NCBI GenBank assembly: GCA_041650935.1
Contig: JBAZKH010000007.1
Coordinates: 41,471-105,470, forward strand
Source: Candidatus Omnitrophota bacterium
GTDB taxonomy: Bacteria > Omnitrophota > Gorgyraeia > 2-01-FULL-45-10
Direction of reading: 5' to 3'
DNA length: 64,000 bases
In this document: in pieces, positions 1 to 61,522 of the stretch
How positions within the stretch are numbered: position 1 is the first letter of the stretch
Layout: every line of letters begins with the position of its first letter
Position numbers and translations under genes: made by a program
Notes under the pieces: generated by a model
What the model was told of the DNA's origin: nothing
The model's input: the letters and a program-made list of their open reading frames with translations, nothing else
Databases searched by the model: none

Positions 1-1
1 G

Positions 2-874
2 CTTCGGCTCAGCAAGGACTTGATGTCGGAATTTCCTGACATGAAGGGTTTTTCCAAGCGGAATCTTGAGCTTATCAGGCAATGGCACTTGTTTTACAGC
101 CAAATTGCGAAACAAGCTGTTTCGCAATTGCCGCTTGAACAAATTACCCAAATTCCGTGGGGTCACAATATCGCCATAATTGCCAAATGTAAAGATATTA
201 AGGAAGCTCTCTATTATGTTCAGAATACTATTACGCACAACTGGAGCAGAAATGTGCTTGTTCATCAGATAGAGAGTGCTTTGTATAGGCGTGAAGGTAG
301 GGCGGTCACTAATTTTCCATTAACGCTTCCTAAACCGCAATCCGATCTTGCCCGGCAGACTTTAAAGGATCCGTATGTTTTCGATTTTCTAAGCATGTCC
401 GATGATTATAATGAGCGCGATCTTGAGAAGGGGCTTACCGTTCATCTGACAAATTTTCTTCTAGAGTTAGGCGCCGGCTTTTCGTTTATCGGCAGGCAGG
501 TTTCTGTTCAGGTCGGAACCAAGGAATTTTTTATAGATCTGCTCTTTTATCATACCCGTTTGCATTGCTATATAGTGGTTGAGTTGAAAACAGGCGATTT
601 TGAGCCGGCCTACGCGGGTCAGCTTAATTTTTATATTAAAGCGGTGGATAGTCAACTACGCAAAAATGACGACCATCCGACTATTGGTCTTCTTCTTTGC
701 AAAAGTCGCGAAAAATTAGTCGCCGAATACGCCTTAAGCGATATCCATAAACCTATCGGCGTCTCCGAATATAAATTAACTCACTCGTTGCCAAAGAAAC
801 TGAAATCGAGCCTTCCAACGATTAAGGAGATCGAGAAAGAACTAAGTAAGGGCATCGGTAAAGCAAAGAAATAA
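2..874 (+). CDS. PDDEXK nuclease, YhcG/DUF1016 family (5' end runs off the window)
   Basis: Reading frame is open to the window edge. Motifs GFSKRNLELIRQWHLFY and FIDLLFYH...YIVVELKTG (D-x-ExK core) match DUF1016. Confidence 0.6.
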   Translation, partial: LRLSKDLMSEFPDMKGFSKRNLELIRQWHLFYSQIAKQAVSQLPLEQITQIPWGHNIAIIAKCKDIKEALYYVQNTITHNWSRNVLVHQIESALYRREGRAVTNFPLTLPKPQSDLARQTLKDPYVFDFLSMSDDYNERDLEKGLTVHLTNFLLELGAGFSFIGRQVSVQVGTKEFFIDLLFYHTRLHCYIVVELKTGDFEPAYAGQLNFYIKAVDSQLRKNDDHPTIGLLLCKSREKLVAEYALSDIHKPIGVSEYKLTHSLPKKLKSSLPTIKEIEKELSKGIGKAKK

Positions 875-907
875 AAACCATATAGTATTTAAAAGCGGAA
901 AGAAAAG

Positions 908-2122
908 ATGGCTGAAGATGTGGTTTTGACAGAGAAAGACGAGGCGAAGCTGGCGGAAAATGCCGCGAGATTAGCCGAAGAATGGTATAGGGGCGACTTT
1001 GAAGTAAATCATTATGATTATCGCGTATGCACCACTTCCGATGGTTTAGTCCAACTATGTAAAGAAGATCATAAAGTCAAGGTTACTCCTTCAGAAATTG
1101 AGGATATGTGCAAGCTGGACTTATTGGAGTATATTCTGGATGAGAAGGACGAAAAGAAGATGCTCCCGCAATTTATAGCTGATAGGGTGGTATTCATAAA
1201 GAAATTACAGACAAAATTTAATTATTCAACTCCGAGACTACAGCAGATTATAGCATATGAGAATGAATTACTGCCCTATTCAAACGAGGCATGCGGTTTC
1301 TATTACACAGACAGGCAGAATATGTATCCATGGGTGGTTAAAAGGGTAAGATTGGCCGCGGAAGGAATCGTAGATTATTTGCGAGATTTGAATGTGCTTA
1401 CCGAAAGATACGATAATGATGCGAAAATGCAGAAACGCAAGTTATTTACGGATAAGATGATTAAAATATTTGAAGAAGATTTAGCTTATCGTAAAAAGTT
1501 CCTCGCCCATCTATCAAAAAGAGGATGGGCCGATTTATCGGAAGACGAGAAGCGAGCGGTGAAAATATCTGCTTTTGAAACGCAATCTTCCGATGAGATC
1601 GAACGAAAATTATCCGTAAGGCATTATTATGACAAGATGCTGGGTGGATATAGCCCACAGGTAGAGTTCAAGGATCAGGAGATGAGTGTCGGAAAATTAG
1701 AGTTTGGGATGATCGACTGGGCCGAAACGATGGAGTCGGTTCAGGAATATAATAAGTTCATAGACTTTTTCAGGACGCCGTACTTCTCAATCGAAATTAA
1801 TGGGCCAGAAATACCTATCAAGATAACCGATCCCCAACAGGTTAGCGCCCCGTTAATGCGTACAATAGAGAAAATTTATACGATAATGAAGGGCCGGCTG
1901 GGGCGTAAAAGAAAGAGTTGGGGAGAAAATTCCGGAAGAAGGCTATTGATACGTAAACGCGATGAGGAGATGAAGAAGCTTTACGCAAATTGGCGCAAAG
2001 CAACTCCTAATGTGGGAAGCAACATACTGATCGACCGGTTGTGCGAGTATACTAAAAAAGTAGGCACTCCAGTTTCATCCATAGAAAGGATTAAGAGAAT
2101 CATTTATACGAAGAAGAAATAA
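908..2122 (+). CDS. hypothetical protein (404 aa), probable cargo of the mobile element
   Basis: Long ORF with a GGAAAG ribosome-binding site and a hairpin plus T7 terminator downstream. No domain recognised by eye. Confidence 0.5.
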   Translation: MAEDVVLTEKDEAKLAENAARLAEEWYRGDFEVNHYDYRVCTTSDGLVQLCKEDHKVKVTPSEIEDMCKLDLLEYILDEKDEKKMLPQFIADRVVFIKKLQTKFNYSTPRLQQIIAYENELLPYSNEACGFYYTDRQNMYPWVVKRVRLAAEGIVDYLRDLNVLTERYDNDAKMQKRKLFTDKMIKIFEEDLAYRKKFLAHLSKRGWADLSEDEKRAVKISAFETQSSDEIERKLSVRHYYDKMLGGYSPQVEFKDQEMSVGKLEFGMIDWAETMESVQEYNKFIDFFRTPYFSIEINGPEIPIKITDPQQVSAPLMRTIEKIYTIMKGRLGRKRKSWGENSGRRLLIRKRDEEMKKLYANWRKATPNVGSNILIDRLCEYTKKVGTPVSSIERIKRIIYTKKK

Positions 2123-2212
2123 GCCGTAAACGCCTGCATCTATTCTCGACATATGCGAATTCAGATGCTGTAGTTCGCGGCCTATTAAATTAGGGCGTTT
2201 TAAGATATATTT

Positions 2213-2247
2213 CCCTGTAGGAACGAAAAACCTACAGGGATTTTTTT
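2213..2247 (+). terminator. intrinsic terminator (CCCTGTAGG / CCTACAGGG stem followed by T7)
   Basis: Perfect 9-bp stem with a 9-nt loop and a T7 run. The run ends 1 nt before the ATG of the next gene. Confidence 0.5.
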
Positions 2248-2586
2248 ATGACAAAAGGCGAGATAAAGATGAGACGGGTAAAAGTGGATGAAGTGGTATT
2301 CTATCCTATACGGCCCACCGAAAAGGGGCTGATCGGGTTTGCCTCGTGCTTATTCGACGGCCGTCTTTCCTTAAATAGCATCGCCATCTACACGCGTCCT
2401 GACGGAAAGGGCTACAGGCTTCTCTTCCCTCTAAAGCGGCTTCCGAATAGTAGAGATGTAAACATCTTTTACCCTGTTAACAATGAAACTTATGAACTCA
2501 TAAAAGAGGCGGTTGTGAAAAAGATAGAAGAACTAGCAGAAAAAGTGAAAGAAAGAGGCGGATATGAAGAATACGGAACATTATGA
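2248..2586 (+). CDS. SpoVG-like nucleic-acid-binding protein
   Basis: N-terminus MTKGEIKMRRV aligns with SpoVG MEVTDVRLRRV. The conserved pattern G.i.fAS..D..f.v..I.i...G..fp.kR.P.....i..P.N...r..I..AV is retained. Confidence 0.55.
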   Translation: MTKGEIKMRRVKVDEVVFYPIRPTEKGLIGFASCLFDGRLSLNSIAIYTRPDGKGYRLLFPLKRLPNSRDVNIFYPVNNETYELIKEAVVKKIEELAEKVKERGGYEEYGTL

Positions 2587-2634
2587 TTTTAGAAGCGTTA
2601 TCGATGATGTAAGGACAGCGAAGGGAGCGGATGA

Positions 2635-4272
2635 ATGATGGTCGCCACCCTCTTGCCACAACACCTTGAAGACTTCAGGAAATCCGGCATAACGGATGCG
2701 TCGGTTGCAAAATATGATATTTCGTCCGTAAGTCAAGGTGAGGCATCCGAGGCGCTTGGATTTAGGCCGCTGAGCGGTGGGTGGGCCCTCCGATATCCGG
2801 GCTCGGAATTCTTTAAGTTTAAGCCGGATACGCCGTTTAATAAAGAGACGAAGTATCTATCACCAAAAGATACGACGCAGGAGCTATTCGTAACGCATCT
2901 TGCGTCCGGCGCTCACGATGATACATCGGAGCCATATTATTTCTGCGAGGGTGAGAAGAAGTGCCTCGCGTTGGAGCAGGCCGGATACGCGGCCATAGGC
3001 GTATCGGGCGTATGGAATTGGAAATCAAGAGGCCATATCAATGAGTACTTGAGCCAGATCAATCTGATGGGCCGAGAGTGCTACATAATCTTTGATAGCG
3101 ACAAATGTTTTAACGGTCATGTGAAAACTGCGGAAAAGAGATTTGCCGAGGCGCTTACTTCTCTTGGTGCGAAGGTGAAGATTGTTAATCTTGATCCTGA
3201 ATTCGGCAAAGGAGCCGATGATCAGCTATTGCGTCTCGGAATAGCTGATTTTCGATACTATATCGATGAGGCACAAGATTACGGCCCGGGCCTTAAATAT
3301 GAGATTCCGCAATTACCTCCCGTTTCACTGCCTCAATTTTTAGCCAAAGACATACCGCCGGTAGAATATTATGTCCGCGGCCTACTTTCAAAACAGGGTA
3401 AGACCATGATCTCTGCTCAGGCGAACATCGGTAAATCCCTATTTGTTCAAAATCTCTCAATTGCCATAGCTTTGGGCAAGGCAAAGGCATTAGATAAATT
3501 CGATGTTACGCACGCGAAGGTCCTGTATTTGGATCTTGAGATGGGCGAGTCTGCGCTGATGCAGCGTTACCAAATTTTATGTAAAGACGAACCGACAAAG
3601 GCACCGGACCTATTCGTCAAATATATCCCAGCTCCTGATTTTCTTGATAGGGAGTTTCAAGCTACTCTGGAGAATTGGCTGACCACACGCAGTATCAACG
3701 TGCTTATCATCGATCCGCTCGGCAATGCTTGGTCAGGTGATGAGAACGATAAGCAAGAAGTCGGACAGCTGACAGCATATCTCAATACGCTGATCGCTAA
3801 GCATCAGATATCGATTCTGGCAGTGCATCACTGGCGCAAGGCCTCGAAGGATTTTAAGGCAGGCGGTGAGATGGCCGCCGGTAGCTACAAATGGGCCGCA
3901 TGGCTTGATTATCATGTGACGCTGGCCGGTGCGCCGGATAGCATAACCATAACCTGCGAAAAAAGCCGGCATGGTATGAGATTTAAGCCATTTCTGGCGA
4001 AAATCAATACCAATACTCTGCAATTCGAATATCTTACCGATTTTGAGAAGAAATTCACCCAAGACACACTGGCTCAGCTATTCGATGACTTCAGAGCCGA
4101 CCGAGTGTCCATTCCCGGCCTGATAAACCACGCCAAGGAAAAGAAATCCGGCTCTGAAAAAACCATAAGGAAACTTATAGCCGAAAGCGCCGCATTCGAG
4201 ATCGACAAGACGGGCAAAACTCATTATTTAGTCAAAAAACAGGGGTTATTCGATGAAACAGACCTCACTTAA
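2635..4272 (+). CDS. primase-helicase of a mobile element (N-terminal TOPRIM/DUF3854-like, C-terminal RepA-like AAA_25 P-loop)
   Basis: YYFCEGEKKCLALEQAGYAAIGVSG and IIFDSD (TOPRIM). AQANIGKS (Walker A) and VLIIDPLGN (Walker B). Confidence 0.7.
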   Translation: MMVATLLPQHLEDFRKSGITDASVAKYDISSVSQGEASEALGFRPLSGGWALRYPGSEFFKFKPDTPFNKETKYLSPKDTTQELFVTHLASGAHDDTSEPYYFCEGEKKCLALEQAGYAAIGVSGVWNWKSRGHINEYLSQINLMGRECYIIFDSDKCFNGHVKTAEKRFAEALTSLGAKVKIVNLDPEFGKGADDQLLRLGIADFRYYIDEAQDYGPGLKYEIPQLPPVSLPQFLAKDIPPVEYYVRGLLSKQGKTMISAQANIGKSLFVQNLSIAIALGKAKALDKFDVTHAKVLYLDLEMGESALMQRYQILCKDEPTKAPDLFVKYIPAPDFLDREFQATLENWLTTRSINVLIIDPLGNAWSGDENDKQEVGQLTAYLNTLIAKHQISILAVHHWRKASKDFKAGGEMAAGSYKWAAWLDYHVTLAGAPDSITITCEKSRHGMRFKPFLAKINTNTLQFEYLTDFEKKFTQDTLAQLFDDFRADRVSIPGLINHAKEKKSGSEKTIRKLIAESAAFEIDKTGKTHYLVKKQGLFDETDLT

Positions 4273-4384
4273 TCATGGCATCGTGGTAATCGCCCTTATT
4301 GGCACAATGTTGTATTCGGGATTGCCGATGTTGGCAATCGTAGTAAAAGGGGTATTGGTATGATTTCCCATGTAAAACGTATTT

Positions 4385-4424
4385 GTGCAAGAATAACGCA
4401 CCATAAAGTGCGGTATTCTTGCAC
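4385..4424. promoter_or_regulatory. 17-bp near-perfect inverted repeat (GTGCAAGAATAACGCAC n6 GTGCGGTATTCTTGCAC), candidate operator/ori element
   Basis: 16 of 17 positions are complementary. It lies in the primase-xis spacer together with CGTGGTAAT direct repeats and ATCGTGGT/ACCACGAT inverted repeats. Confidence 0.35.
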
Positions 4425-4505
4425 CGATACTGTCGATCGTGGCATTGTGGTAATGGTATATAAGACGGGGACGATTGTTTACCACGATTTTGGCGAGGGC
4501 CAGCC

Positions 4506-4685
4506 ATGACAAAATTGCTCTCGCCTCAAGAATTGTCAGACGTTTTAAGTATAAGCATCGAGACCGTCTATGCGTGGACGTCTCAGAAGAGGATCCCATA
4601 CATCAAGATGGGCAGGCTTGTCCGGTTCAATGCGGATGAGGTGAATAAGTGGCTCGAAAGGCAGAGGGTGGAGGCACAGGAATGA
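4506..4685 (+). CDS. AlpA/Xis-family helix-turn-helix protein (59 aa; below the ORF-track size cutoff)
   Basis: ATG..TGA ORF translating to MTKLLSPQELSDVLSISIETVYAWTSQKRIPYIKMGRLVRFNADEVNKWLERQRVEAQE (AlpA/excisionase HTH pattern). It lies immediately upstream of the integrase. Confidence 0.6.
   Translation: MTKLLSPQELSDVLSISIETVYAWTSQKRIPYIKMGRLVRFNADEVNKWLERQRVEAQE
4641..4671 (+). repeat. 31-bp direct repeat copy 1 (3' end of the xis-like gene)
   Basis: GTGAATAAGTGGCTCGAAAGGCAGAGGGTGG. It is 30/31 identical to 4976-5006. Confidence 0.7.
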
Positions 4686-4692
4686 GATTGCT

Positions 4693-4965
4693 TTGGCCGC
4701 TTCGCGGCCTCGCAATGACGGGGAAAAATGGGACAGTCCCAATCAGCAGATTTGTTCTGCGATACTGAGGTTTCTGGCGATACTGATGTTTTGCAAACAA
4801 AAGGGGGTGGGTATGAAGAAGGGGTGGAATAAGGCATTTAAAAGAATACTGGCTCAAGCCGACCAGGAGCTTAAAGAGTTTGAGCGGAGCTGGGATGCCA
4901 CGCTTCAAAGGCTGGCGGACGAGTGGAATAAGGTAGCCGATGCAAGAGATAAAGAAGGGCGTTGA
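4693..4965 (+). CDS. hypothetical small protein (possibly a diverged xis paralog; start uncertain)
   Basis: The ORF C-terminus RLADEWNKVADARDKEGR parallels xis ADEVNKWLERQR. Weak. Confidence 0.25.
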   Translation: MAASRPRNDGEKWDSPNQQICSAILRFLAILMFCKQKGVGMKKGWNKAFKRILAQADQELKEFERSWDATLQRLADEWNKVADARDKEGR

Positions 4966-4975
4966 TAGTTAAATC

Positions 4976-5006
4976 GTGAATAAGTGGCTCGAAAGACAGA
5001 GGGTGG
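4976..5006 (+). repeat. 31-bp direct repeat copy 2
   Basis: GTGAATAAGTGGCTCGAAAGACAGAGGGTGG. It would encode VNKWLERQRV if read in frame (a xis 3' remnant). Confidence 0.7.
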
Positions 5007-5024
5007 CGCCGGGCGATTAACTAC

Positions 5025-5054
5025 TTGCCAACCCTCACAAAATATGGCTATATA
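5025..5054 (+). promoter_or_regulatory. sigma70-like promoter for int (TTGCCA n18 TATATA)
   Basis: The -10 box ends 8 nt before the ATG, implying a leaderless or very short leader. Confidence 0.35.
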
Positions 5055-5062
5055 CCAACACT

Positions 5063-6133
5063 ATGATATATAAACGGGGCAAAATCTGGTACATAGGGTT
5101 TTCCGTTAACGGACGCTTGATACGAGAAGCGGTCGGAGAGTCGCGGAAATTCGCCGAGCTCGTCCTTGGCAAGAAACGGGCCGAGGTAAGAGAGGGGCGT
5201 TTCCTTGATGTCAAGAAACACGCGAAGATCAGGTTTGAAGATTTTGCGGATGAGTACTTAGAGACGCACTCTAAGCTCAAAAAATCATATTATACAGACT
5301 GTAAAATCGCGGGGCTTCTTAAAAAGTTTTTCGGCGGGAAGTGTCTGCATGAAATAACCTCATTAGATATCGAAAAGTTTAAGACAAGCCGTATCAAAGA
5401 AGTCAAACCTGCAACGGTAAATAGGGCCTTAGCGGTCCTGAAATCGATGTTCAATAAAGCTATTGCATGGGGCAAGGCCGATAGCAATCCCTTTAAGGCA
5501 GTTAAATTGTTTAAAGAAAACAATCAAAGACTACGCTTCCTTGAGCGAGAGGACATTCCCAAGCTACTAGCCAATTGCTGTTTGCATCTTAAACCGATAG
5601 TGATATTAGCCCTAAATACCGGCATGAGAAAGGGAGAGATCCTGGGCCTCAAATGGCATAATATAGACTTCAAAAGAGATACGATCCATTTGCATGATAC
5701 TAAAAGCGGAGAGGGCAGAGATGTGCCTCTTAACGCTGCGGCCAAGAAGGCTTTGATAGCGGTTCCGAAGCATCCAGGCTCACCATATATATTTAATGAT
5801 AACAATGGTAATAATTACGGGGATATAAAGAAATCTTTCTTGACCGCCGTGAAAAAATCGGATATAATTGACTTTCACTTTCACGATCTTAGGCACACAT
5901 TCGCGTCACAGCTTGTTATGGCCGGAGTGGATTTGAATACTGTCAGGGAGTTGTTAGGTCATAAGAGCATCGAAATGACATTGAGATATTCTCATCTGTC
6001 CCCGGATCATAAAAAGCGGGCGGTCGATGTGTTAGGCGGGCGAATTAGCACAAATATAGCACAAACGCCCGCGGTTGACGACACGGAAAAATTGGCAGTG
6101 TCGCAACTCATTGAAAATACGGTAGTTACGTAG
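5063..6133 (+). CDS. int: tyrosine recombinase / phage-type integrase
   Basis: N-terminal SAM-like domain. C-terminal HDLRHTFAS...LLGHKSIEMTLRYSHL catalytic motifs (R..HxxR..Y). Confidence 0.85.
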   Translation: MIYKRGKIWYIGFSVNGRLIREAVGESRKFAELVLGKKRAEVREGRFLDVKKHAKIRFEDFADEYLETHSKLKKSYYTDCKIAGLLKKFFGGKCLHEITSLDIEKFKTSRIKEVKPATVNRALAVLKSMFNKAIAWGKADSNPFKAVKLFKENNQRLRFLEREDIPKLLANCCLHLKPIVILALNTGMRKGEILGLKWHNIDFKRDTIHLHDTKSGEGRDVPLNAAAKKALIAVPKHPGSPYIFNDNNGNNYGDIKKSFLTAVKKSDIIDFHFHDLRHTFASQLVMAGVDLNTVRELLGHKSIEMTLRYSHLSPDHKKRAVDVLGGRISTNIAQTPAVDDTEKLAVSQLIENTVVT

Positions 6134-6136
6134 TTT

Positions 6137-6212
6137 GCCCGCATAGCTCAATTGGCAGAGCAGGACACTCTTAATGTCAAGGTTCCAAGTTCGATTCTTG
6201 GTGCGGGCACCA
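6137..6212 (+). tRNA. tRNA-Lys (anticodon CTT)
   Basis: Cloverleaf folded by hand: acceptor GCCCGCA/TGCGGGC, D stem GCTC/GAGC, anticodon loop CTCTTAA, T stem CCAAG/CTTGG, encoded CCA. Confidence 0.85.
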
Positions 6213-6248
6213 TGTCAGTTAGACTGTAATGACAAATGTCAAAATCTA

Positions 6249-6290
6249 AATGACAAATCAATCTTTAAATGACCAATATTTAAAGATTTG
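6249..6290 (+). repeat. hairpin element family A/B, copy A (CAAATC stem, 25-nt loop, GATTTG)
   Basis: 36/42 identical to 38256-38297. It is preceded by two more AATGACAAAT copies at 6228-6258. Confidence 0.6.
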
Positions 6291-6310
6291 TTATTGTGAT
6301 TTTACAAAAT

Positions 6311-6385
6311 GCGGCGGTAATTCAGTGGTAGAATGCGACCTTGCCAAGGTCGATGTCGTGGGTTCGAAACCCATCCGCCGCTCCA
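6311..6385 (+). tRNA. tRNA-Gly (anticodon GCC)
   Basis: Acceptor GCGGCGG/CCGCCGC, anticodon stem CGACC/GGTCG, loop TTGCCAA, T loop TTCGAAA, encoded CCA. Confidence 0.85.
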
Positions 6386-12216: not shown

Positions 12217-12240
12217 GTAGTGTATAGTGAATAGTGGGTA
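12217..12240. repeat. AGTGRAT-type short tandem repeats
   Basis: GTAGTGTATAGTGAATAGTGGGTA. The same family occurs at 36567-36649. Confidence 0.5.
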
Positions 12241-13519: not shown

Positions 13520-13618
13520 TTAGATATAGACCATAAACCAAAATCTAATTTTTTAGTCTCTGGTCTACTGTCTCTGGCCTATAGTCTATAAGGTGCGCAG
13601 AAAGGAGCGTAGTAAAAG

Positions 13619-25173: not shown

Positions 25174-25215
25174 AGTGAAGCTCCACCGCCTTATTAGCGG
25201 CGGCTTCTTTTTTTA
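25174..25215. repeat. palindromic terminator-like element, copy 1
   Basis: AGTGAAGCTCCACCGCCTTATTAGCGGCGGCTTCTTTTTTTA. Its reverse complement recurs at 34513-34554 with 1 mismatch. Confidence 0.6.
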
Positions 25216-30759: not shown

Positions 30760-30788
30760 TTGCCAAGAGTTGGCTTGCGTGCTATACT
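30760..30788 (+). promoter_or_regulatory. sigma70-like promoter (TTGCCA n17 TATACT), 9 nt before the ATG
   Basis: Perfect spacing. Implies a leaderless transcript. Confidence 0.4.
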
Positions 30789-30797
30789 TTCACCGCT

Positions 30798-30995
30798 ATG
30801 GGAAAAGTTTTGAGCTTGATTATCGGGACAGCGGTTGCAGTTATCGGAGTTGTGCTTTTAGTAATATGGTGGTGCGATTTCGTAACGATGTTGAAAGGCG
30901 CCGTGCCCGTAATACTGATATTTGGCGGTGCTATCGCGGTAATCGCGGGGCTTAGCGAACTGAAAGACGAGCTGGCCGCCAAAGAAGATAAATAA
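30798..30995 (+). CDS. small two-TM membrane protein (65 aa)
   Basis: Has its own promoter and a strong terminator. Confidence 0.45.
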   Translation: MGKVLSLIIGTAVAVIGVVLLVIWWCDFVTMLKGAVPVILIFGGAIAVIAGLSELKDELAAKEDK

Positions 30996-33499: not shown

Positions 33500-33669
33500 A
33501 GCTGCCAAAGAAATTTAGTTCCTAACACTTGCCAAAATCAAATTTTGTGGTAAACTTATTCCATAGTGACGTTTTTGTTCTATGGTCAGGCAAAGGCAGC
33601 CCCTCGGCGCGGGACTTAGATATTAAGGTATTCCCTCGACACGGGACTCAAAACAGTAGTGTCTCGGGA

Positions 33670-33736
33670 TGATTTGCAAGACTAAGGTAATGGCAAATCA
33701 CGGGACGATTTGTCAGACTTAGATAACAACAAATCG
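33670..33736 (+). repeat. tandem hairpin leader elements (family C/D) ending in the Shine-Dalgarno sequence
   Basis: TGATTTGC/GCAAATCA and CGATTTGT/ACAAATCG stems. The last 45 nt are near-identical to the rpsT leader. Confidence 0.6.
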
Positions 33737-33745
33737 GAGGTGGGT

Positions 33746-34512: not shown

Positions 34513-34554
34513 TAAAAAAAGAAGCCACCGCTAATAAGGCGGTGGAGCTTCACT
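34513..34554. repeat. palindromic terminator-like element, copy 2 (inverted)
   Basis: Reverse complement of 25174-25215 with one mismatch. Confidence 0.6.
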
Positions 34555-36569: not shown

Positions 36570-36649
36570 TGAATGGTGAATAGTGGATAGAGCGGTCGAG
36601 CAATACGGCCTTGCTTCACTACCTACTCTCCACTATACACTAATCACTA
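36567..36649. repeat. AGTGRAT-type repeats forming a 25-bp imperfect inverted repeat
   Basis: TAGTGAATGGTGAATAGTGGATAGAG ... CTCTCCACTATACACTAATCACTA. Confidence 0.5.
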
Positions 36650-36664
36650 AAAAGGGGAATAAAG

Positions 36665-38257
36665 GTGATAAAAGTCAGGAGAGCGTTAATAAGTGTATCG
36701 GATAAGACGGGGCTTGAGGACCTGGCCGGGGTTTTAAATAAGTTCGGGGTCGAGATATTGTCGACGGGCGGCACGGCAAAGGCCATAAGGGCTTTGGGTA
36801 TTCCGGCCAAAGACGTTTCCGAACATACCGGTTTTCCCGAAATGCTCGATGGGCGGGTGAAGACTCTCCATCCCAATATCCACGGAGGCCTCCTTGCCCT
36901 TCGCGAAAACAAAGAACACATGGATACGGTTAAGGAGCGCGGCATCGGTCTTATAGACATGGTCGTTGTCAACCTGTATCCCTTCGAAAAGACGATTGCC
37001 AAACCCGGCGTTAAGCTGGAAGAGGCGATAGAAAATATCGATATCGGCGGACCTTCCATGCTGAGAAGCGCGGCGAAGAACCACAGGTCGGTTTGTGTCG
37101 TATGCGATCCCGGTGATTACGGAAAGGTCATCGGCGCGATGGAAAAGAATTCCGGCTCTCTTCCGGAGAGCCTGCTCGTCGAGCTGGGCGTAAAGGTTTT
37201 CCAGAAGACGTCGGATTATGACGCGGCGATATGCGGGTATTTGAAAGACCATAGACCGGAGACCGGAGACCGGGGTGAGGATTTTCCGCAACGCCTTGAC
37301 TTGAGGTACAAGAAGCTGCAGGACCTAAGGTACGGCGAAAACCCGCACCAGAAAGCGGCGTTCTATAAGGATGAATCATCCAGCGAACCAAGCGTGTCGA
37401 ACGCCGTCCAACTGCACGGCAAAGAGTTATCGTTCAATAATATAATAGACCTCAACGCCGCCCTGGAGATAGTCAAGGAATACGATGAACCGGCCGCGAC
37501 GATAATAAAACATACAAACCCCTGCGGCGCGGCGACGGCAAAGAGCCTGAAGCAGGCGTATATAGACGCTCTCGACTGCGACCGTTTAAGCGCGTTTGGG
37601 AGCATCGTCGGATTTAACAAGCCCGTGGACCTGGAGACGGCAAAGACGATCCTGGAAGAGGCGGATTTCGTCGAGTGTATAATAGCGCCTTCTTATGTCC
37701 CGGCGGCGTTAGAAGCGCTTAAGGCAAAGAAGAACCTGCGGCTCCTGGAAGTTAAAGATTTCGCCTCCAGGCTATCGCCCGGGCGCAAATCGGATAAGAT
37801 AGATAAGGACATGAAGAAGGTCGTCGGCGGGATGCTGATGCAGGATAGGGACGTTGCTTTACTGGAAGAGCCGGCGCTAAAGGTCGTTACGAAGATAAAG
37901 CCCACCAAAGAACAACTCGCATCTCTTCTCTTCGGATGGGTAATCGCCAAGCATGTTAAATCGAATGCCATCGTCCTATGCCGGGGCACAAAGACCGTCG
38001 GTGTCGGCGCCGGGCAGATGTCGAGGGTCGATTCGGTAATGATAGCATGCAGAAAAGCCGGCTCCCGCGCCAGGGGCTCTACGCTGGCGAGCGACGCATT
38101 CTTCCCCAAAGAAGACGGCATCGAACAGGCTCATCAGGGCGGCATTACCGCGATAATACAGCCGGGCGGATCCATACGCGACCAGGATGTAATAAAGATG
38201 GCCGATAAGCTCGGGATCGCGATGGTATTTACCGGAGCAAGACACTTTAAACACTAA
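36665..38257 (+). CDS. purH: AICAR transformylase / IMP cyclohydrolase
   Basis: ALISVSDKTGL...GGTAKA MGS-like domain plus AICARFT domain. GTG start. Confidence 0.9.
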   Translation: MIKVRRALISVSDKTGLEDLAGVLNKFGVEILSTGGTAKAIRALGIPAKDVSEHTGFPEMLDGRVKTLHPNIHGGLLALRENKEHMDTVKERGIGLIDMVVVNLYPFEKTIAKPGVKLEEAIENIDIGGPSMLRSAAKNHRSVCVVCDPGDYGKVIGAMEKNSGSLPESLLVELGVKVFQKTSDYDAAICGYLKDHRPETGDRGEDFPQRLDLRYKKLQDLRYGENPHQKAAFYKDESSSEPSVSNAVQLHGKELSFNNIIDLNAALEIVKEYDEPAATIIKHTNPCGAATAKSLKQAYIDALDCDRLSAFGSIVGFNKPVDLETAKTILEEADFVECIIAPSYVPAALEALKAKKNLRLLEVKDFASRLSPGRKSDKIDKDMKKVVGGMLMQDRDVALLEEPALKVVTKIKPTKEQLASLLFGWVIAKHVKSNAIVLCRGTKTVGVGAGQMSRVDSVMIACRKAGSRARGSTLASDAFFPKEDGIEQAHQGGITAIIQPGGSIRDQDVIKMADKLGIAMVFTGARHFKH

Positions 38258-38297
38258 TGACAAATAGATCTTTAAATTACCAATATCCAAATATTTG
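38256..38297 (+). repeat. hairpin element family A/B, copy B (CAAATA stem, 25-nt loop, TATTTG)
   Basis: 36/42 identical to copy A, with a compensatory C/G to A/T stem change. TTTGTCATTT repeats follow. Confidence 0.6.
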
Positions 38298-38375
38298 CGA
38301 TTTGGATTTAAATGATTGATTTGGATTTTGTCATTTGAAATTTGTCATTTTCATTTTATAAGCTTATCTTATCGC

Positions 38376-39671
38376 ATGACCTATACTGAGGCGCTACAAT
38401 ATCTCGATTCGTTCATCAACTATGAAAGACGCAGTAATTACGATTACAAGCAGTCTTTCAAGCTGGAGAGGATGAAGCGCCTGTCAGAGATACTTGATAA
38501 CCCTCACCGGAATTTCCGATCCATCCACATAGCCGGCACAAAAGGCAAGGGCTCTACGTCGGCGATCGTCTATTCGATCCTGAAAGAAGCCGGATATAAG
38601 ACCGGGCTCTATACGTCGCCGCACCTTGTTTCGTTTCGCGAAAGAATACGTATAAATGACGAATTTATAAGCGAGGCCGATCTGTCGCGTCTGCTCTTGA
38701 AGATAAAGGGCGGCGTCGAGGCGATGGCGGATGACAGGCCCACCTTCTTCGAGGTTTGCACGGCCGTCGCGTATCTATATTTCAGCCGGGAGAAAGTCGA
38801 TTTCGCGGTTTTCGAGGTCGGCCTCGGCGGCCGCCTGGACGCTACGAATGTATTAGAGCCGCTCGTTACGGCTATTACCCCTATAAGTTACGAACATACC
38901 GATAAGCTGGGCTGCACCCTCGGCGAGATCGCCTGCGAGAAGGCCGGCATCGTCAAAGAGAAGACCCCGTGTGTCATAGCGCCGCAGGAAGACGAGGCTC
39001 TGAGGGCCATAATCAAGGTGTGCGAGGAGAGGAGCTCAAAGACGATTCTCGTCGGGAAAGATATAAAATTTAACGAGATAGGGTTCAGCGATTCTATGGA
39101 AATATTTTCCGTTACGGGAACGGCTTCCGGATATCAGAAACTCGAGATGACACTGCTTGGGAGCCACCAGGTCGTCAACGCCGCCACCGCTATAGGCGTT
39201 ATCGAGTCGCTGCGGCTCAAGGATATCGCCGTATCCGACGAGGCTGTCCGTAAGGGTGTGCGGAATGCCAAATGGCAGGGGAGGCTCGAGGTTATTTCCC
39301 GGTGTCCTTATGTCGTCCTCGACGGCGCGCAGAACCGCGCCAGCGCAAAAGCGCTCGCGAGAGCCGTAAAGCGGATATTTAAGTATGGTAAGCTTATCCT
39401 GGTCCTGGGCATTTCGAAAGATAAGGATATTAAGGGAGTGGCCGAAGAACTCCTGCCGATTGCCGATAAGGTGATCCTGACGAAGGCCGGAGTAACCGGG
39501 CGGGCGGCGGAACCGGAACATATAAAAAAGTTTGTGACGCGCAAAGACAGGGATGTCTATTTGACCGGTAGTGTTAAAGAGGCCCTGGGCATGGCAAGGG
39601 CATTCGCTTCACCCGACGACATGATCCTGATAACGGGCTCGCTATTTGTGGTAGGAGAAGCAAAATTGTGA
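38376..39671 (+). CDS. folC: folylpolyglutamate synthase / dihydrofolate synthase
   Basis: IHIAGTKGKGST P-loop. Start reassigned to MTYTEALQYLD. Confidence 0.8.
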   Translation: MTYTEALQYLDSFINYERRSNYDYKQSFKLERMKRLSEILDNPHRNFRSIHIAGTKGKGSTSAIVYSILKEAGYKTGLYTSPHLVSFRERIRINDEFISEADLSRLLLKIKGGVEAMADDRPTFFEVCTAVAYLYFSREKVDFAVFEVGLGGRLDATNVLEPLVTAITPISYEHTDKLGCTLGEIACEKAGIVKEKTPCVIAPQEDEALRAIIKVCEERSSKTILVGKDIKFNEIGFSDSMEIFSVTGTASGYQKLEMTLLGSHQVVNAATAIGVIESLRLKDIAVSDEAVRKGVRNAKWQGRLEVISRCPYVVLDGAQNRASAKALARAVKRIFKYGKLILVLGISKDKDIKGVAEELLPIADKVILTKAGVTGRAAEPEHIKKFVTRKDRDVYLTGSVKEALGMARAFASPDDMILITGSLFVVGEAKL

Positions 39672-56843: not shown

Positions 56844-56853
56844 TTGCTACCTC

Positions 56854-56958
56854 CGATTTGTTATTATCTAAGTCTGACAAATCGTCCCTAGGTGCACTAA
56901 CTTGAGTCCGGCACCGTGGGACTACCGTAATTTGTACTTAAGTCTGACAAATCGTCCC
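56854..56958 (-). repeat. hairpin leader elements (family C/D); the proximal copy abuts the rpsT Shine-Dalgarno sequence
   Basis: Minus-strand read GGGACGATTTGTCAGACTTAGATAATAACAAATCGGAGGT. A second unit lies 70 bp upstream with nested covarying inner stems. Confidence 0.6.
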
Positions 56959-57046
56959 GAGCTGCCGCTGTCTAACTCCAGCAGCGAGGGACTACTGTAA
57001 AGACAAAATTATATCACGTGAGTAATTTGAGGTCAACATTTTTTAT

Positions 57047-61487: not shown

Positions 61488-61522
61488 AAGTGGATAGAGG
61501 ATAGGAGTGGCTGCTAAAATAG

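What the first reader, a model, noticed from the sequence alone, without database searches (positions are those of the whole stretch)
6213..6310. Second hairpin family (A/B) between tRNA-Lys and tRNA-Gly and again between purH and folC
The 42-mers at 6249-6290 and 38256-38297 are 36/42 identical: AATGACAAAT, then a 6-bp stem, a 25-nt loop RATCTTTAAAT(G/T)ACCAATATYYAAA and the complementary stem. Copy A uses CAAATC/GATTTG and copy B uses CAAATA/TATTTG, so the outer stem pair changed on both sides while the loop stayed conserved. Copy A is preceded by two further AATGACAAAT repeats (6228-6258). Copy B overlaps the purH stop and is followed by GATTTGGA x2 and TTTGTCATTT x2 (38298-38350). The stem sequence GATTTG/CAAATC is shared with family C/D, which suggests related elements. 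Candidate functions are a transcript-processing or terminator structure, a small-RNA gene, or a binding site for a regulator.
Basis: seen in the sequence. Interest (0 to 1): 0.65.

Follow-up and report, generated by a model that had tools for sequence, protein, structure and literature searches.

The report
Species-specific AT-rich palindromic spacer repeat
Two gene junctions in this Omnitrophota genome carry related copies of a short, AT-rich palindromic repeat that close relatives lack, so it looks like a small inserted repeat element, not a conserved regulatory RNA hairpin.

Summary
The two 42-mers exist and are 36/42 identical. The ungapped match extends to 44/54, far above chance. Copy A folds through an inner 10-7-10 AT palindrome, and the proposed stem in copy B is worth only -0.5 kcal/mol (z +0.6). 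Both loci are imperfect palindromes built from a ~22-nt unit, AATGACAAAT-NNATC-TTTAAAT, with outer arms AATGACAAAT/ATTTGTCATT.

Both are insertions specific to this lineage. All six related Omnitrophota contigs examined have purH and folC 1-2 nt apart. In the roughly 30 related loci where tRNA-Lys directly precedes tRNA-Gly, the spacer runs from 0 to 968 nt and never contains the motif.

A second assembly of the same species has both copies 100% identical but lacks the neighbouring integrase island. A is therefore not that island's attachment site.

No further copy was found in 612 kb of local sequence, and Rfam gave nothing. The sequence shared with family C/D is within chance.

Best reading: a small non-coding palindromic repeat, MITE- or REPIN-like, tolerated at gene junctions. 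Copy B may also supply a weak promoter for a leaderless folC. Genome-wide copy number could not be tested. Interest is low to moderate.

The parts
6213..6310 (+). Locus A: the whole 98-nt tRNA-Lys to tRNA-Gly spacer, 23% GC in a 49% GC window
   Evidence: Some relatives have a spacer of 0-14 nt (L143, L188, L137, L116, L117).
6228..6295 (+). Element A proper, bounded by AATGACAAAT (6228 and 6249) on the left and ATTTGTTATT (6286-6295, 9/10 inverted) on the right
   Evidence: RNA fold of the spacer is -23.8 kcal/mol, z -4.0.
6249..6270 (+). Unit copy AATGACAAATCAATCTTTAAAT. A degenerate tandem copy lies at 6228-6248.
6261..6287 (.). Inner perfect 10-7-10 palindrome ATCTTTAAAT-GACCAAT-ATTTAAAGAT. 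This is the real hairpin of copy A and is not kept in copy B.
   Evidence: (MFE of 6249-6290 is -7.7 kcal/mol, z -3.7) and direct reading.
38258..38375 (+). Locus B: 118-nt purH-folC spacer, 25% GC, an insertion relative to six related contigs where the spacer is 1-2 nt
38256..38349 (+). Element B proper: a 94-nt imperfect palindrome with perfect 10-nt outer arms AATGACAAAT (38256-38265) and ATTTGTCATT (38340-38349), centred on CAAATATTTG (38288-38297)
   Evidence: B vs its reverse complement scores 52, 0/500 shuffles.
38256..38277 (+). Unit copy AATGACAAATAGATCTTTAAAT
38306..38349 (-). Inverted unit copy with an internal duplication (reverse complement: AATGACAAATTTCAAATGACAAAATCCAAATCAATCATTTAAAT). 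It includes a period-7/14 TTTGTCA array.
   Evidence: A vs rc(B) scores 51, 0/500 shuffles. TRF rows 38327-38356 and 38319-38350.
38342..38370 (+). Sigma-70-like promoter match TTGTCA-17 nt-TATCTT (9/12). Its -10 ends 5 nt before the folC ATG at 38376, and no Shine-Dalgarno is present.
   Evidence: and sequence. Function is inferred, not shown.

Best explanation
A and B are two copies of a small, non-coding, AT-rich palindromic repeat element specific to this Candidatus Omnitrophota species. It is MITE- or REPIN-like in architecture. A ~22-nt unit (AATGACAAAT-NNATC-TTTAAAT) is arranged in tandem and inverted copies, so each locus is an imperfect palindrome with AATGACAAAT/ATTTGTCATT outer arms.

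Shown: the element was copied into two junctions where, in some or all relatives examined, the flanking genes nearly or directly abut. One is tRNA-Lys|tRNA-Gly and the other is purH|folC.

Inferred: it persists there because such junctions tolerate an insertion. In A the spacer is removed anyway when the tRNA precursor is processed. In B the insert separates purH from folC, whose stop and start codons are 1-2 nt apart in relatives. folC is then expressed either by read-through with initiation on an AU-rich leader that lacks a Shine-Dalgarno, or from the weak outward-facing promoter that the right arm provides (TTGTCA-17-TATCTT), giving a leaderless folC mRNA. On RNA the element would form an AU-rich hairpin inside a polycistronic transcript. 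The way it is copied is unknown: transposition in trans, or template switching primed on TAATGAC-like microhomology.
For: - Homology of A and B in both orientations is far above shuffles. nhmmer gives E 6e-12 and 7e-11.
- Terminal inverted repeats are 10/10 in B and 9/10 in A.
- Empty sites: purH-folC are 1-2 nt apart in six related contigs: L002, L003, L004, L205, L206 and the P0004 contig.
- In related loci where tRNA-Lys directly precedes tRNA-Gly the spacer is 0-968 nt and carries no motif. Other related loci have tRNA-Leu before tRNA-Gly and also lack the motif.
- No copy in about 548 kb of related Omnitrophota loci.
- Both copies are 100% identical in an independent assembly of the same species (ERZ27247363: L191, L193). 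Part of B is also in a Logan contig. They are therefore real and fixed.
- GC is 23-25% against 49% for the window.
- Both inserts begin right after TAATGAC. L115 has TAGTCAC at the corresponding place in its spacer, and folC in relatives starts with ATGAC.
- The same genome has other palindromic, heptamer-periodic junction inserts, for example gpmA-purH 36570-36664.
- Promoter match.
- Another probably leaderless gene follows the promoter near 30790.
Against: - Only two loci are known, and the rest of the genome could not be searched.
- No clear target-site duplication. ATGAC flanks B, but nothing comparable flanks A.
- No transposase or RAYT gene in the window.
- A and B are only ~81-86% identical and differ in architecture, which is odd for recent copies of one master element.
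- No presence/absence polymorphism between the two strains available.
- The B promoter match is weak (9/12), whereas clear promoters in this genome match nearly perfectly.
- B's RNA fold is not significantly better than shuffles (z -1.8).
Confidence: 0.5

Rival explanations
1. The spacers grew locally, without a mobile element. Short AT-rich repeats expanded by replication slippage and were made palindromic by fold-back template switching. The A/B similarity then comes from one templated copying or gene-conversion event between the two loci, primed on the TAATGAC microhomology.
For: - Tandem substructure: 19-21-nt repeats in A's left arm, and a period-7/14 array in B's right arm (lag 14, 1/1000 shuffles).
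- Both inserts start after TAATGAC-like sequence that may be ancestral.
- Spacers before tRNA-Gly in relatives carry unrelated repeat-armed hairpins, for example in L122, L146 and L168.
- No transposase in the window.
- A and B differ in architecture.
Against: - 44/54 ungapped identity includes non-periodic sequence (ATCTTTAAATKACCAATAT), so at least one copy-and-paste step is still needed.
- Heptamer periodicity in A is not significant (129/1000 shuffles).
Confidence: 0.22
2. The repeats are an array of binding sites for a DNA-binding protein, such as a regulator or a nucleoid-associated protein, that recognises AATGACAAAT in direct and inverted orientation. Such an array would act as an operator or roadblock upstream of tRNA-Gly/ptsN and folC.
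For: - The 10-mer occurs in direct and inverted copies with spacings of 21, 19 and 14 bp.
- TGACAAAT is enriched in the window, 8 hits vs 1.3 expected.
- The A core is a perfect 10-7-10 palindrome.
Against: - The sites are absent from the orthologous positions in all relatives examined.
- The flanking genes have no shared function.
- The 8-mer enrichment comes almost entirely from the repeat copies themselves and from copies of the C/D repeat.
- No candidate binding protein is known.
Confidence: 0.13
3. One reading: a structured RNA, meaning a processing or terminator hairpin or a small RNA, whose stem is kept by compensatory change.
For: - Spacer A folds better than shuffles (z -4.0).
- There is one C-G to A-T double change between the proposed stems.
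Against: - The proposed hairpin is not the MFE in A, and in B it is -0.5 kcal/mol with z +0.59.
- No Rfam match.
- No terminator-like site in either spacer, although the genome has canonical GC-rich terminators (repeat I1).
- Not conserved in any relative.
Confidence: 0.07
4. Locus A is the attachment or core site of the adjacent tyrosine integrase (5063-6133). The 10-7-10 palindrome would be the core and the AATGACAAAT repeats the arm-type sites. B would be a secondary site.
For: - The core-site-like architecture lies about 130 nt downstream of an integrase gene.
- A and B share the left half and the centre and then diverge.
Against: - A strain of the same species without the island has A 100% identical.
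- Contigs carrying integrase homologues (98% and 77% identity) have the same int-tRNA-Lys junction but no A-like sequence downstream. In L188, tRNA-Gly follows tRNA-Lys directly.
- The island junction is on the 5' side of tRNA-Lys, not at A.
- The 32 kb between A and B are syntenic housekeeping genes.
Confidence: 0.02

Closest known systems
Bacterial MITEs, e.g. Correia elements (CREE/NEMIS) of Neisseria (comparison from my own knowledge)
   Same: - Small and non-coding, with terminal inverted repeats.
- Inserted between genes and co-transcribed with them.
- Able to form a long hairpin.
- The ends can create outward promoters.
- Restricted to one species or genus.
   Different: - No sequence similarity.
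- The element here is shorter (about 47-94 nt) and very AT-rich.
- No clear target-site duplication (Correia elements duplicate TA).
- Copy number is unknown; Correia elements number in the hundreds.
- No parent IS was identified.
REP/REPIN elements mobilised by RAYT transposases (comparison from my own knowledge)
   Same: - Short repeats restricted to intergenic regions.
- Often occur as inverted doublets that form a hairpin.
- Families are species-specific.
- Sit at the 3' ends of genes inside operons.
   Different: - The unit here is not itself a palindrome and lacks the conserved 5' GTAG-type tetranucleotide.
- It is AT-rich.
- No RAYT gene is seen in the window.
- High copy number is not shown.
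STRR heptanucleotide tandem repeats of heterocystous cyanobacteria (comparison from my own knowledge)
   Same: - Intergenic arrays of tandem heptamers.
- B's right arm is a TTTGTCA array, close to the STRR2 heptamer TTGGTCA.
- Other spacers in this window are clearly heptamer-periodic.
   Different: - STRRs are plain tandem arrays, not palindromes.
- A's periodicity is not significant.
- The phylum is different.
Intrinsic (rho-independent) terminators
   Same: A hairpin followed by a U-rich stretch in A (UUGUUAUUGUGAUUUU).
   Different: - The stem has no G-C pairs.
- The terminator scan finds none in either spacer.
- In relatives with a 0-14-nt spacer, tRNA-Gly and ptsN have no room for a promoter of their own downstream of tRNA-Lys, so termination here would be harmful.

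Membership tests
MITE | Terminal inverted repeats | tested here: met
   B: AATGACAAAT (38256-38265) / ATTTGTCATT (38340-38349), 10/10. A: 6249-6258 / 6286-6295, 9/10.
MITE | Small size and no coding capacity | tested here: met
   47-94 nt elements in 98- and 118-nt spacers. The only in-frame reading is an artefactual TTG extension of folC that homologues do not share.
MITE | Target-site duplication | tested here: inconclusive
   ATGAC flanks the B insert. The empty site in L205 is CACTAGTATGACC. No matching duplication is seen at A.
MITE | Empty sites in related genomes | tested here: met
   - purH-folC spacer is 1-2 nt in six related contigs.
- tRNA-Lys-tRNA-Gly spacer is 0-14 nt in L143, L188, L137, L116 and L117.
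MITE | Many dispersed copies in the genome | not testable with these tools
   - Only 2 loci in the 64-kb window.
- The metagenome scan did not return even A and B, so this species is not in that collection and the scan had no power.
MITE | Parent IS or transposase with matching ends | tested here: not met
   No transposase in the window. The only recombinase is the island integrase, which is unrelated to A. Not testable genome-wide.
REP/REPIN-RAYT | Unit is a 20-40-nt imperfect palindrome with a conserved 5' GTAG-like tetranucleotide | tested here: not met
   The unit AATGACAAAT-NNATC-TTTAAAT is not self-complementary and has no GTAG.
REP/REPIN-RAYT | Cognate RAYT gene in the genome | not testable with these tools
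   Not present among the window ORFs scanned.
Intrinsic terminator | G+C-rich stem followed by a T run | tested here: not met
   No terminator-like site in either spacer. The A stem consists of A-T pairs only.
Known RNA families (Rfam 15) | Match to a covariance model at the gathering score | tested here: not met
   Only the tRNAs pass. The permissive scans give only sub-threshold chance hits.
Tyrosine-recombinase att site of the adjacent island | The site travels with, or is created by, the island or its integrase | tested here: not met
   A is identical in the island-free strain L191. It is absent next to the 98% and 77% integrase homologues.
Same family as hairpin family C/D | Sequence similarity above chance | tested here: not met
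   The longest shared word with the 33666-33741 copy is 9 nt, reached by 11% of shuffles. Control spacers share 9-10-mers.

The most novel reading that the evidence does not exclude
A/B may belong to a previously undescribed class of species-specific mobile palindromic short-repeat elements in Omnitrophota. Elements of this class would insert exactly at gene junctions, 3' of a TAATGAC-like target, uncouple tightly packed genes, and donate -35-like (TTGTCA/ATGACA) promoter parts. They would be mobilised by an as yet unidentified enzyme. The other heptamer-periodic junction inserts in this genome and its relatives would be sister families.
Probability: 0.15. Interest if true: 0.5.

Novelty: new member of a known kind. 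Interest (0 to 1): 0.25.

Why it matters
If the element is mobile, it would be the first small non-autonomous repeat described in Omnitrophota, an uncultivated phylum with compact genomes. It would also show how operons packed gene against gene (purH|folC, tRNA-Lys|tRNA-Gly) get split and possibly re-wired with new promoters. In practice, such spacers mislead gene callers: folC was called 20 codons too long in an independent assembly. Contig L001 also begins inside B, which may be a break caused by the repeat. If the element is only a neutral insertion, it is ordinary.

Tried and rejected
- **Metagenome scan.** ATCTTTAAATNACCAATAT gave 110 hits, all with unrelated flanks. Neither the source contig nor the ERZ27247363 contig was returned, so the species is not in that collection and the result says nothing about copy number.
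- **Viral scans.** The unit pattern gave 0 hits. The inverted 10-mer pattern gave 10 unrelated hairpins. Two of them, on one 58-60% GC viral contig, are AAATGAC-heptamer palindromes with similar architecture but no further similarity.
- **Local searches.** Mismatch-tolerant searches and nhmmer over 612 kb of window plus Omnitrophota loci found no further copy.
- **Rfam.** Gathering and permissive thresholds both gave nothing.
- **Integrase att-site idea.** Rejected. No tRNA-Leu remnant was found in the window.
- **Link to family C/D.** Not above chance.
- **Terminator reading.** Rejected.
- **Promoter in A.** No sigma-70-like match at 9/12 or better. By eye there is only ATGACA-18-CAATAT, which is weak.
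- **Heptamer periodicity of A.** Not significant.
- **More sequence of this genome.** The look-up of the last gene in the window failed. All other look-ups of window proteins led back to the same region.
- **Literature.** A search for Omnitrophota intergenic repeats found nothing relevant.

Full report

The sequences are as described. tRNA-Lys(ctt) is at 6137-6212 and tRNA-Gly(gcc) at 6311-6385. purH is 36665-38257 and folC starts at the ATG at 38376. The 42-mers are 36/42 identical, and the ungapped match extends to 44/54 (6249-6302 vs 38256-38309). The local-alignment score is 58, against 17.6 +/- 2.7 for shuffles. The 24-nt core with up to 3 mismatches occurs only at these two places. AATGACAAAT with up to 1 mismatch occurs 13 times against 4.3 expected.

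One detail is wrong. Only one extra exact AATGACAAAT (6228) precedes copy A, because the one at 6249 is the start of copy A itself.

**2. The proposed hairpin is not the structure.**

The predicted fold uses this palindrome plus an outer AUGACAAA/UUUGUUAU helix. The whole spacer folds at -23.8 kcal/mol, z -4.0. In B that inner palindrome is not kept. The "compensatory" change is a single pair in two sequences.

**3. What the two loci have in common.**

A aligns to B in both orientations: score 58 forward and 51 against the reverse complement of B. B aligns to its own reverse complement with score 52. In all three cases 0/500 shuffles reach the score.

Both loci are imperfect palindromes built from a ~22-nt unit, AATGACAAAT-NNATC-TTTAAAT.
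- In A the unit occurs at 6249-6270, with a degenerate tandem copy at 6228-6248 and an inverted, shortened copy at 6278-6295.
- In B it occurs at 38256-38277, with an inverted copy carrying an internal duplication at 38306-38349.
- The outer arms are AATGACAAAT/ATTTGTCATT, matching 10/10 in B and 9/10 in A.
- B's right arm is a period-7/14 TTTGTCA array.

Both spacers are 23-25% GC in a window of 49% GC.

**4. Organism and relatives.**

Contigs carrying close homologues of the neighbouring PTS EIIA-like protein (called ptsN below) are almost all titled Candidatus Omnitrophota MAGs. The nearest purH proteins are 81-84% identical. The synteny RNR - msc - radical SAM - gpmA - purH - folC - mnmE - folE is kept across relatives.

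*purH-folC junction.* In six related contigs (L002, L003, L004, L205, L206 and the P0004 contig) purH and folC are 1-2 nt apart. Typical junctions read ...AAACATTAGAATGAC... or ...AAACACTAGTATGACC.... B is therefore a 118-nt insertion between the purH stop and the folC start.

*tRNA junction.* The cluster tRNA-Arg/Leu/Lys/Gly-ptsN is conserved, though tRNA order varies. In the roughly 30 loci where tRNA-Lys directly precedes tRNA-Gly, the spacer runs from 0 to 968 nt with unrelated content. In other loci tRNA-Leu precedes tRNA-Gly. None of these spacers carries the A motif. In L143 and L188 the two tRNAs abut directly. Mismatch-tolerant searches and nhmmer over 612 kb (window plus Omnitrophota loci) find only A and B.

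**5. The copies are real and fixed.**

An independent assembly of the same species (ENA ERZ27247363, contig k141_2474919; ptsN and folE proteins identical) has A and B 100% identical. A Logan contig from SRR8542065 starts inside B and is identical over the rest.

**6. The integrase next door is not involved.**

The window has an integrative island left of tRNA-Lys. It carries a YhcG-type nuclease, a DUF3854/AAA_25 protein and a tyrosine integrase at 5063-6133, with an excisionase-like fragment upstream of the integrase read from the 4600-5062 spacer. A's 10-7-10 palindrome with flanking direct repeats looks like a recombinase core site with arm sites, so I tested that idea.
- The ERZ strain lacks the island. 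It has tRNA-Leu(tag) and a TTGCAT-17-TATAAT promoter before tRNA-Lys, yet it has A unchanged.
- Contigs carrying integrase homologues of 98% and 77% identity show the same junction (integrase stop, 3 nt, tRNA-Lys) but no A-like sequence downstream.

The att-site idea is rejected.

**7. Other readings tested.**

- Rfam finds only the tRNAs.
- There is no terminator-like site in either spacer, although the genome has canonical GC-rich terminators (repeat I1).
- The link to family C/D rests on a shared 9-mer, which 11% of shuffles reach. Unrelated spacers share 9-10-mers with A/B. C/D is a separate module (GGGAYGATTTG...CAAATC) just 5' of the Shine-Dalgarno of the msc-like gene and of rpsT. It has one orthologous copy in L002.

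**8. Most likely explanation.**

A species-specific, non-coding, palindromic repeat element, MITE- or REPIN-like in architecture, was copied into two junctions where relatives have little or no spacer.

*Shown:* the homology of the two copies, the inverted terminal arms, the empty sites in relatives, and fixation in two strains.

*Inferred:*
- Mobility itself.
- A possible target preference. Both inserts begin right after TAATGAC. L115 has TAGTCAC at the matching place, and the ancestral folC start supplies ATGAC.
- Consequences for expression. In A the spacer lies inside a tRNA-tRNA-ptsN co-transcript and would be removed during tRNA processing. In B the insert separates purH from folC, whose stop and start codons nearly touch in relatives, and folC has no Shine-Dalgarno. 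The right arm gives a weak promoter match, TTGTCA-17-TATCTT, whose -10 ends 5 nt before the ATG. A leaderless folC mRNA is therefore possible. Another probably leaderless gene follows a strong promoter near 30790.

*Against:* only two loci are known. There is no clean target-site duplication and no transposase in the window. The copies are only 81-86% identical and differ in architecture.

**9. Main rival.**

The spacers could have grown locally by slippage plus fold-back template switching, with one templated copying event between the two loci. This fits three things: the tandem substructure, the TAATGAC microhomology, and the many unrelated repeat-armed hairpins in the spacers before tRNA-Gly of relatives. 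It still needs a copy-and-paste step to explain the non-periodic shared core.

**10. Limits.**

The metagenome scan did not return even A and B. The species is therefore not in that collection, and the scan says nothing about copy number. The rest of the genome could not be reached. Genome-wide copy number is the decisive missing piece.

**11. Verdict.**

The repeat is real. The claimed structured-RNA hairpin is not supported. The element is most likely an ordinary small intergenic repeat of a known general kind, newly seen in Omnitrophota. Interest is low to moderate.

Noticed in passing
window 36570-36664 (gpmA-purH spacer); also 12218-12240 and 61488-61510; L205 515-601: A 95-nt palindrome of ATAGTGA heptamers around a GC-rich centre. 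Lag-7 periodicity: 0/1000 shuffles reach it. It shares a 23-nt arm with 12218-12240. gpmA and purH overlap in L002-L004 and in the P0004 contig. L205/L206 (purH 83%) carry a related insert with the same arms but a different centre, so this family is older than A/B and could be tested for covariation.
   Followed up: partly
window 33590-33745 (+) and 56849-57000 (-): Family C/D: repeated GGGAYGATTTG...CAAATC hairpin modules directly 5' of the Shine-Dalgarno of an msc-like gene and of rpsT. The last 40 nt are 98% identical between the two genes. One orthologous, diverged copy lies upstream of msc in L002; L003 and L004 have none.
   Followed up: partly
window 1-6136; L191 1-600: An integrative island abuts the 5' end of tRNA-Lys. 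It carries a YhcG-type nuclease, a DUF3854+AAA_25 primase/helicase-like protein, an excisionase-like fragment and a tyrosine integrase. It is absent from a same-species contig, where tRNA-Arg, tRNA-Leu(tag) and a promoter precede tRNA-Lys. Integrase homologues of 98% and 77% identity show the same junction of integrase stop, 3 nt, tRNA-Lys.
   Followed up: partly
window 4641-4671 and 4976-5006: A 31-nt direct repeat (97% identical) upstream of the integrase. It appears to be a duplicated 3' end of an excisionase-like ORF.
   Followed up: no
window 25174-25215 and 34513-34554: A 42-nt terminator-like GC-rich hairpin with a T run, present twice in opposite orientation at 98% identity. TTTCCACCCCGGGGTGGAA occurs three times (25346, 50714, 50736).
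   Followed up: no
window 13520-13618: A spacer with a TAGTCTCTGGCCTA period-7/14 array and a partly complementary left part. Lag-7 periodicity: 0/1000 shuffles reach it.
   Followed up: no
L119, L122, L162 (tRNA-Lys to tRNA-Gly spacers); L122, L146, L168: Related Omnitrophota spacers contain duplicated tRNA-Lys 3' ends (GATTCTTGGTGCGGGCACCA), which are likely scars of elements integrated into tRNA-Lys. They also contain unrelated hairpins whose arms are short tandem repeats: TGTGTAA in L122, TTGCCAT in L168, and an A/T-rich AAGTTTTAAG-type repeat in L146.
   Followed up: no
L196 1408-1470 and L198 5587-5654 (IMGVR_UViG_3300018077_000011): A viral contig of 58-60% GC carries two AT-rich palindromes made of AAATGAC(C)/AAATGAGC heptamers. 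The L198 copy lies in a short gap between same-strand ORFs. The architecture matches the Omnitrophota junction inserts, but the relation is unknown.
   Followed up: partly
window ~30780-30990: A small membrane-protein-like ORF (MGKVLSLIIG...) starts 9 nt after the -10 of a strong TTGCCA-17-TATACT promoter, so its mRNA is probably leaderless.
   Followed up: no
L193 1726-3081 (same-species contig): The gene caller started folC at the TTG inside element B (window 38316). This gives 451 aa, against 431-435 aa in homologues. It is probably a mis-annotation caused by the insert.
   Followed up: yes
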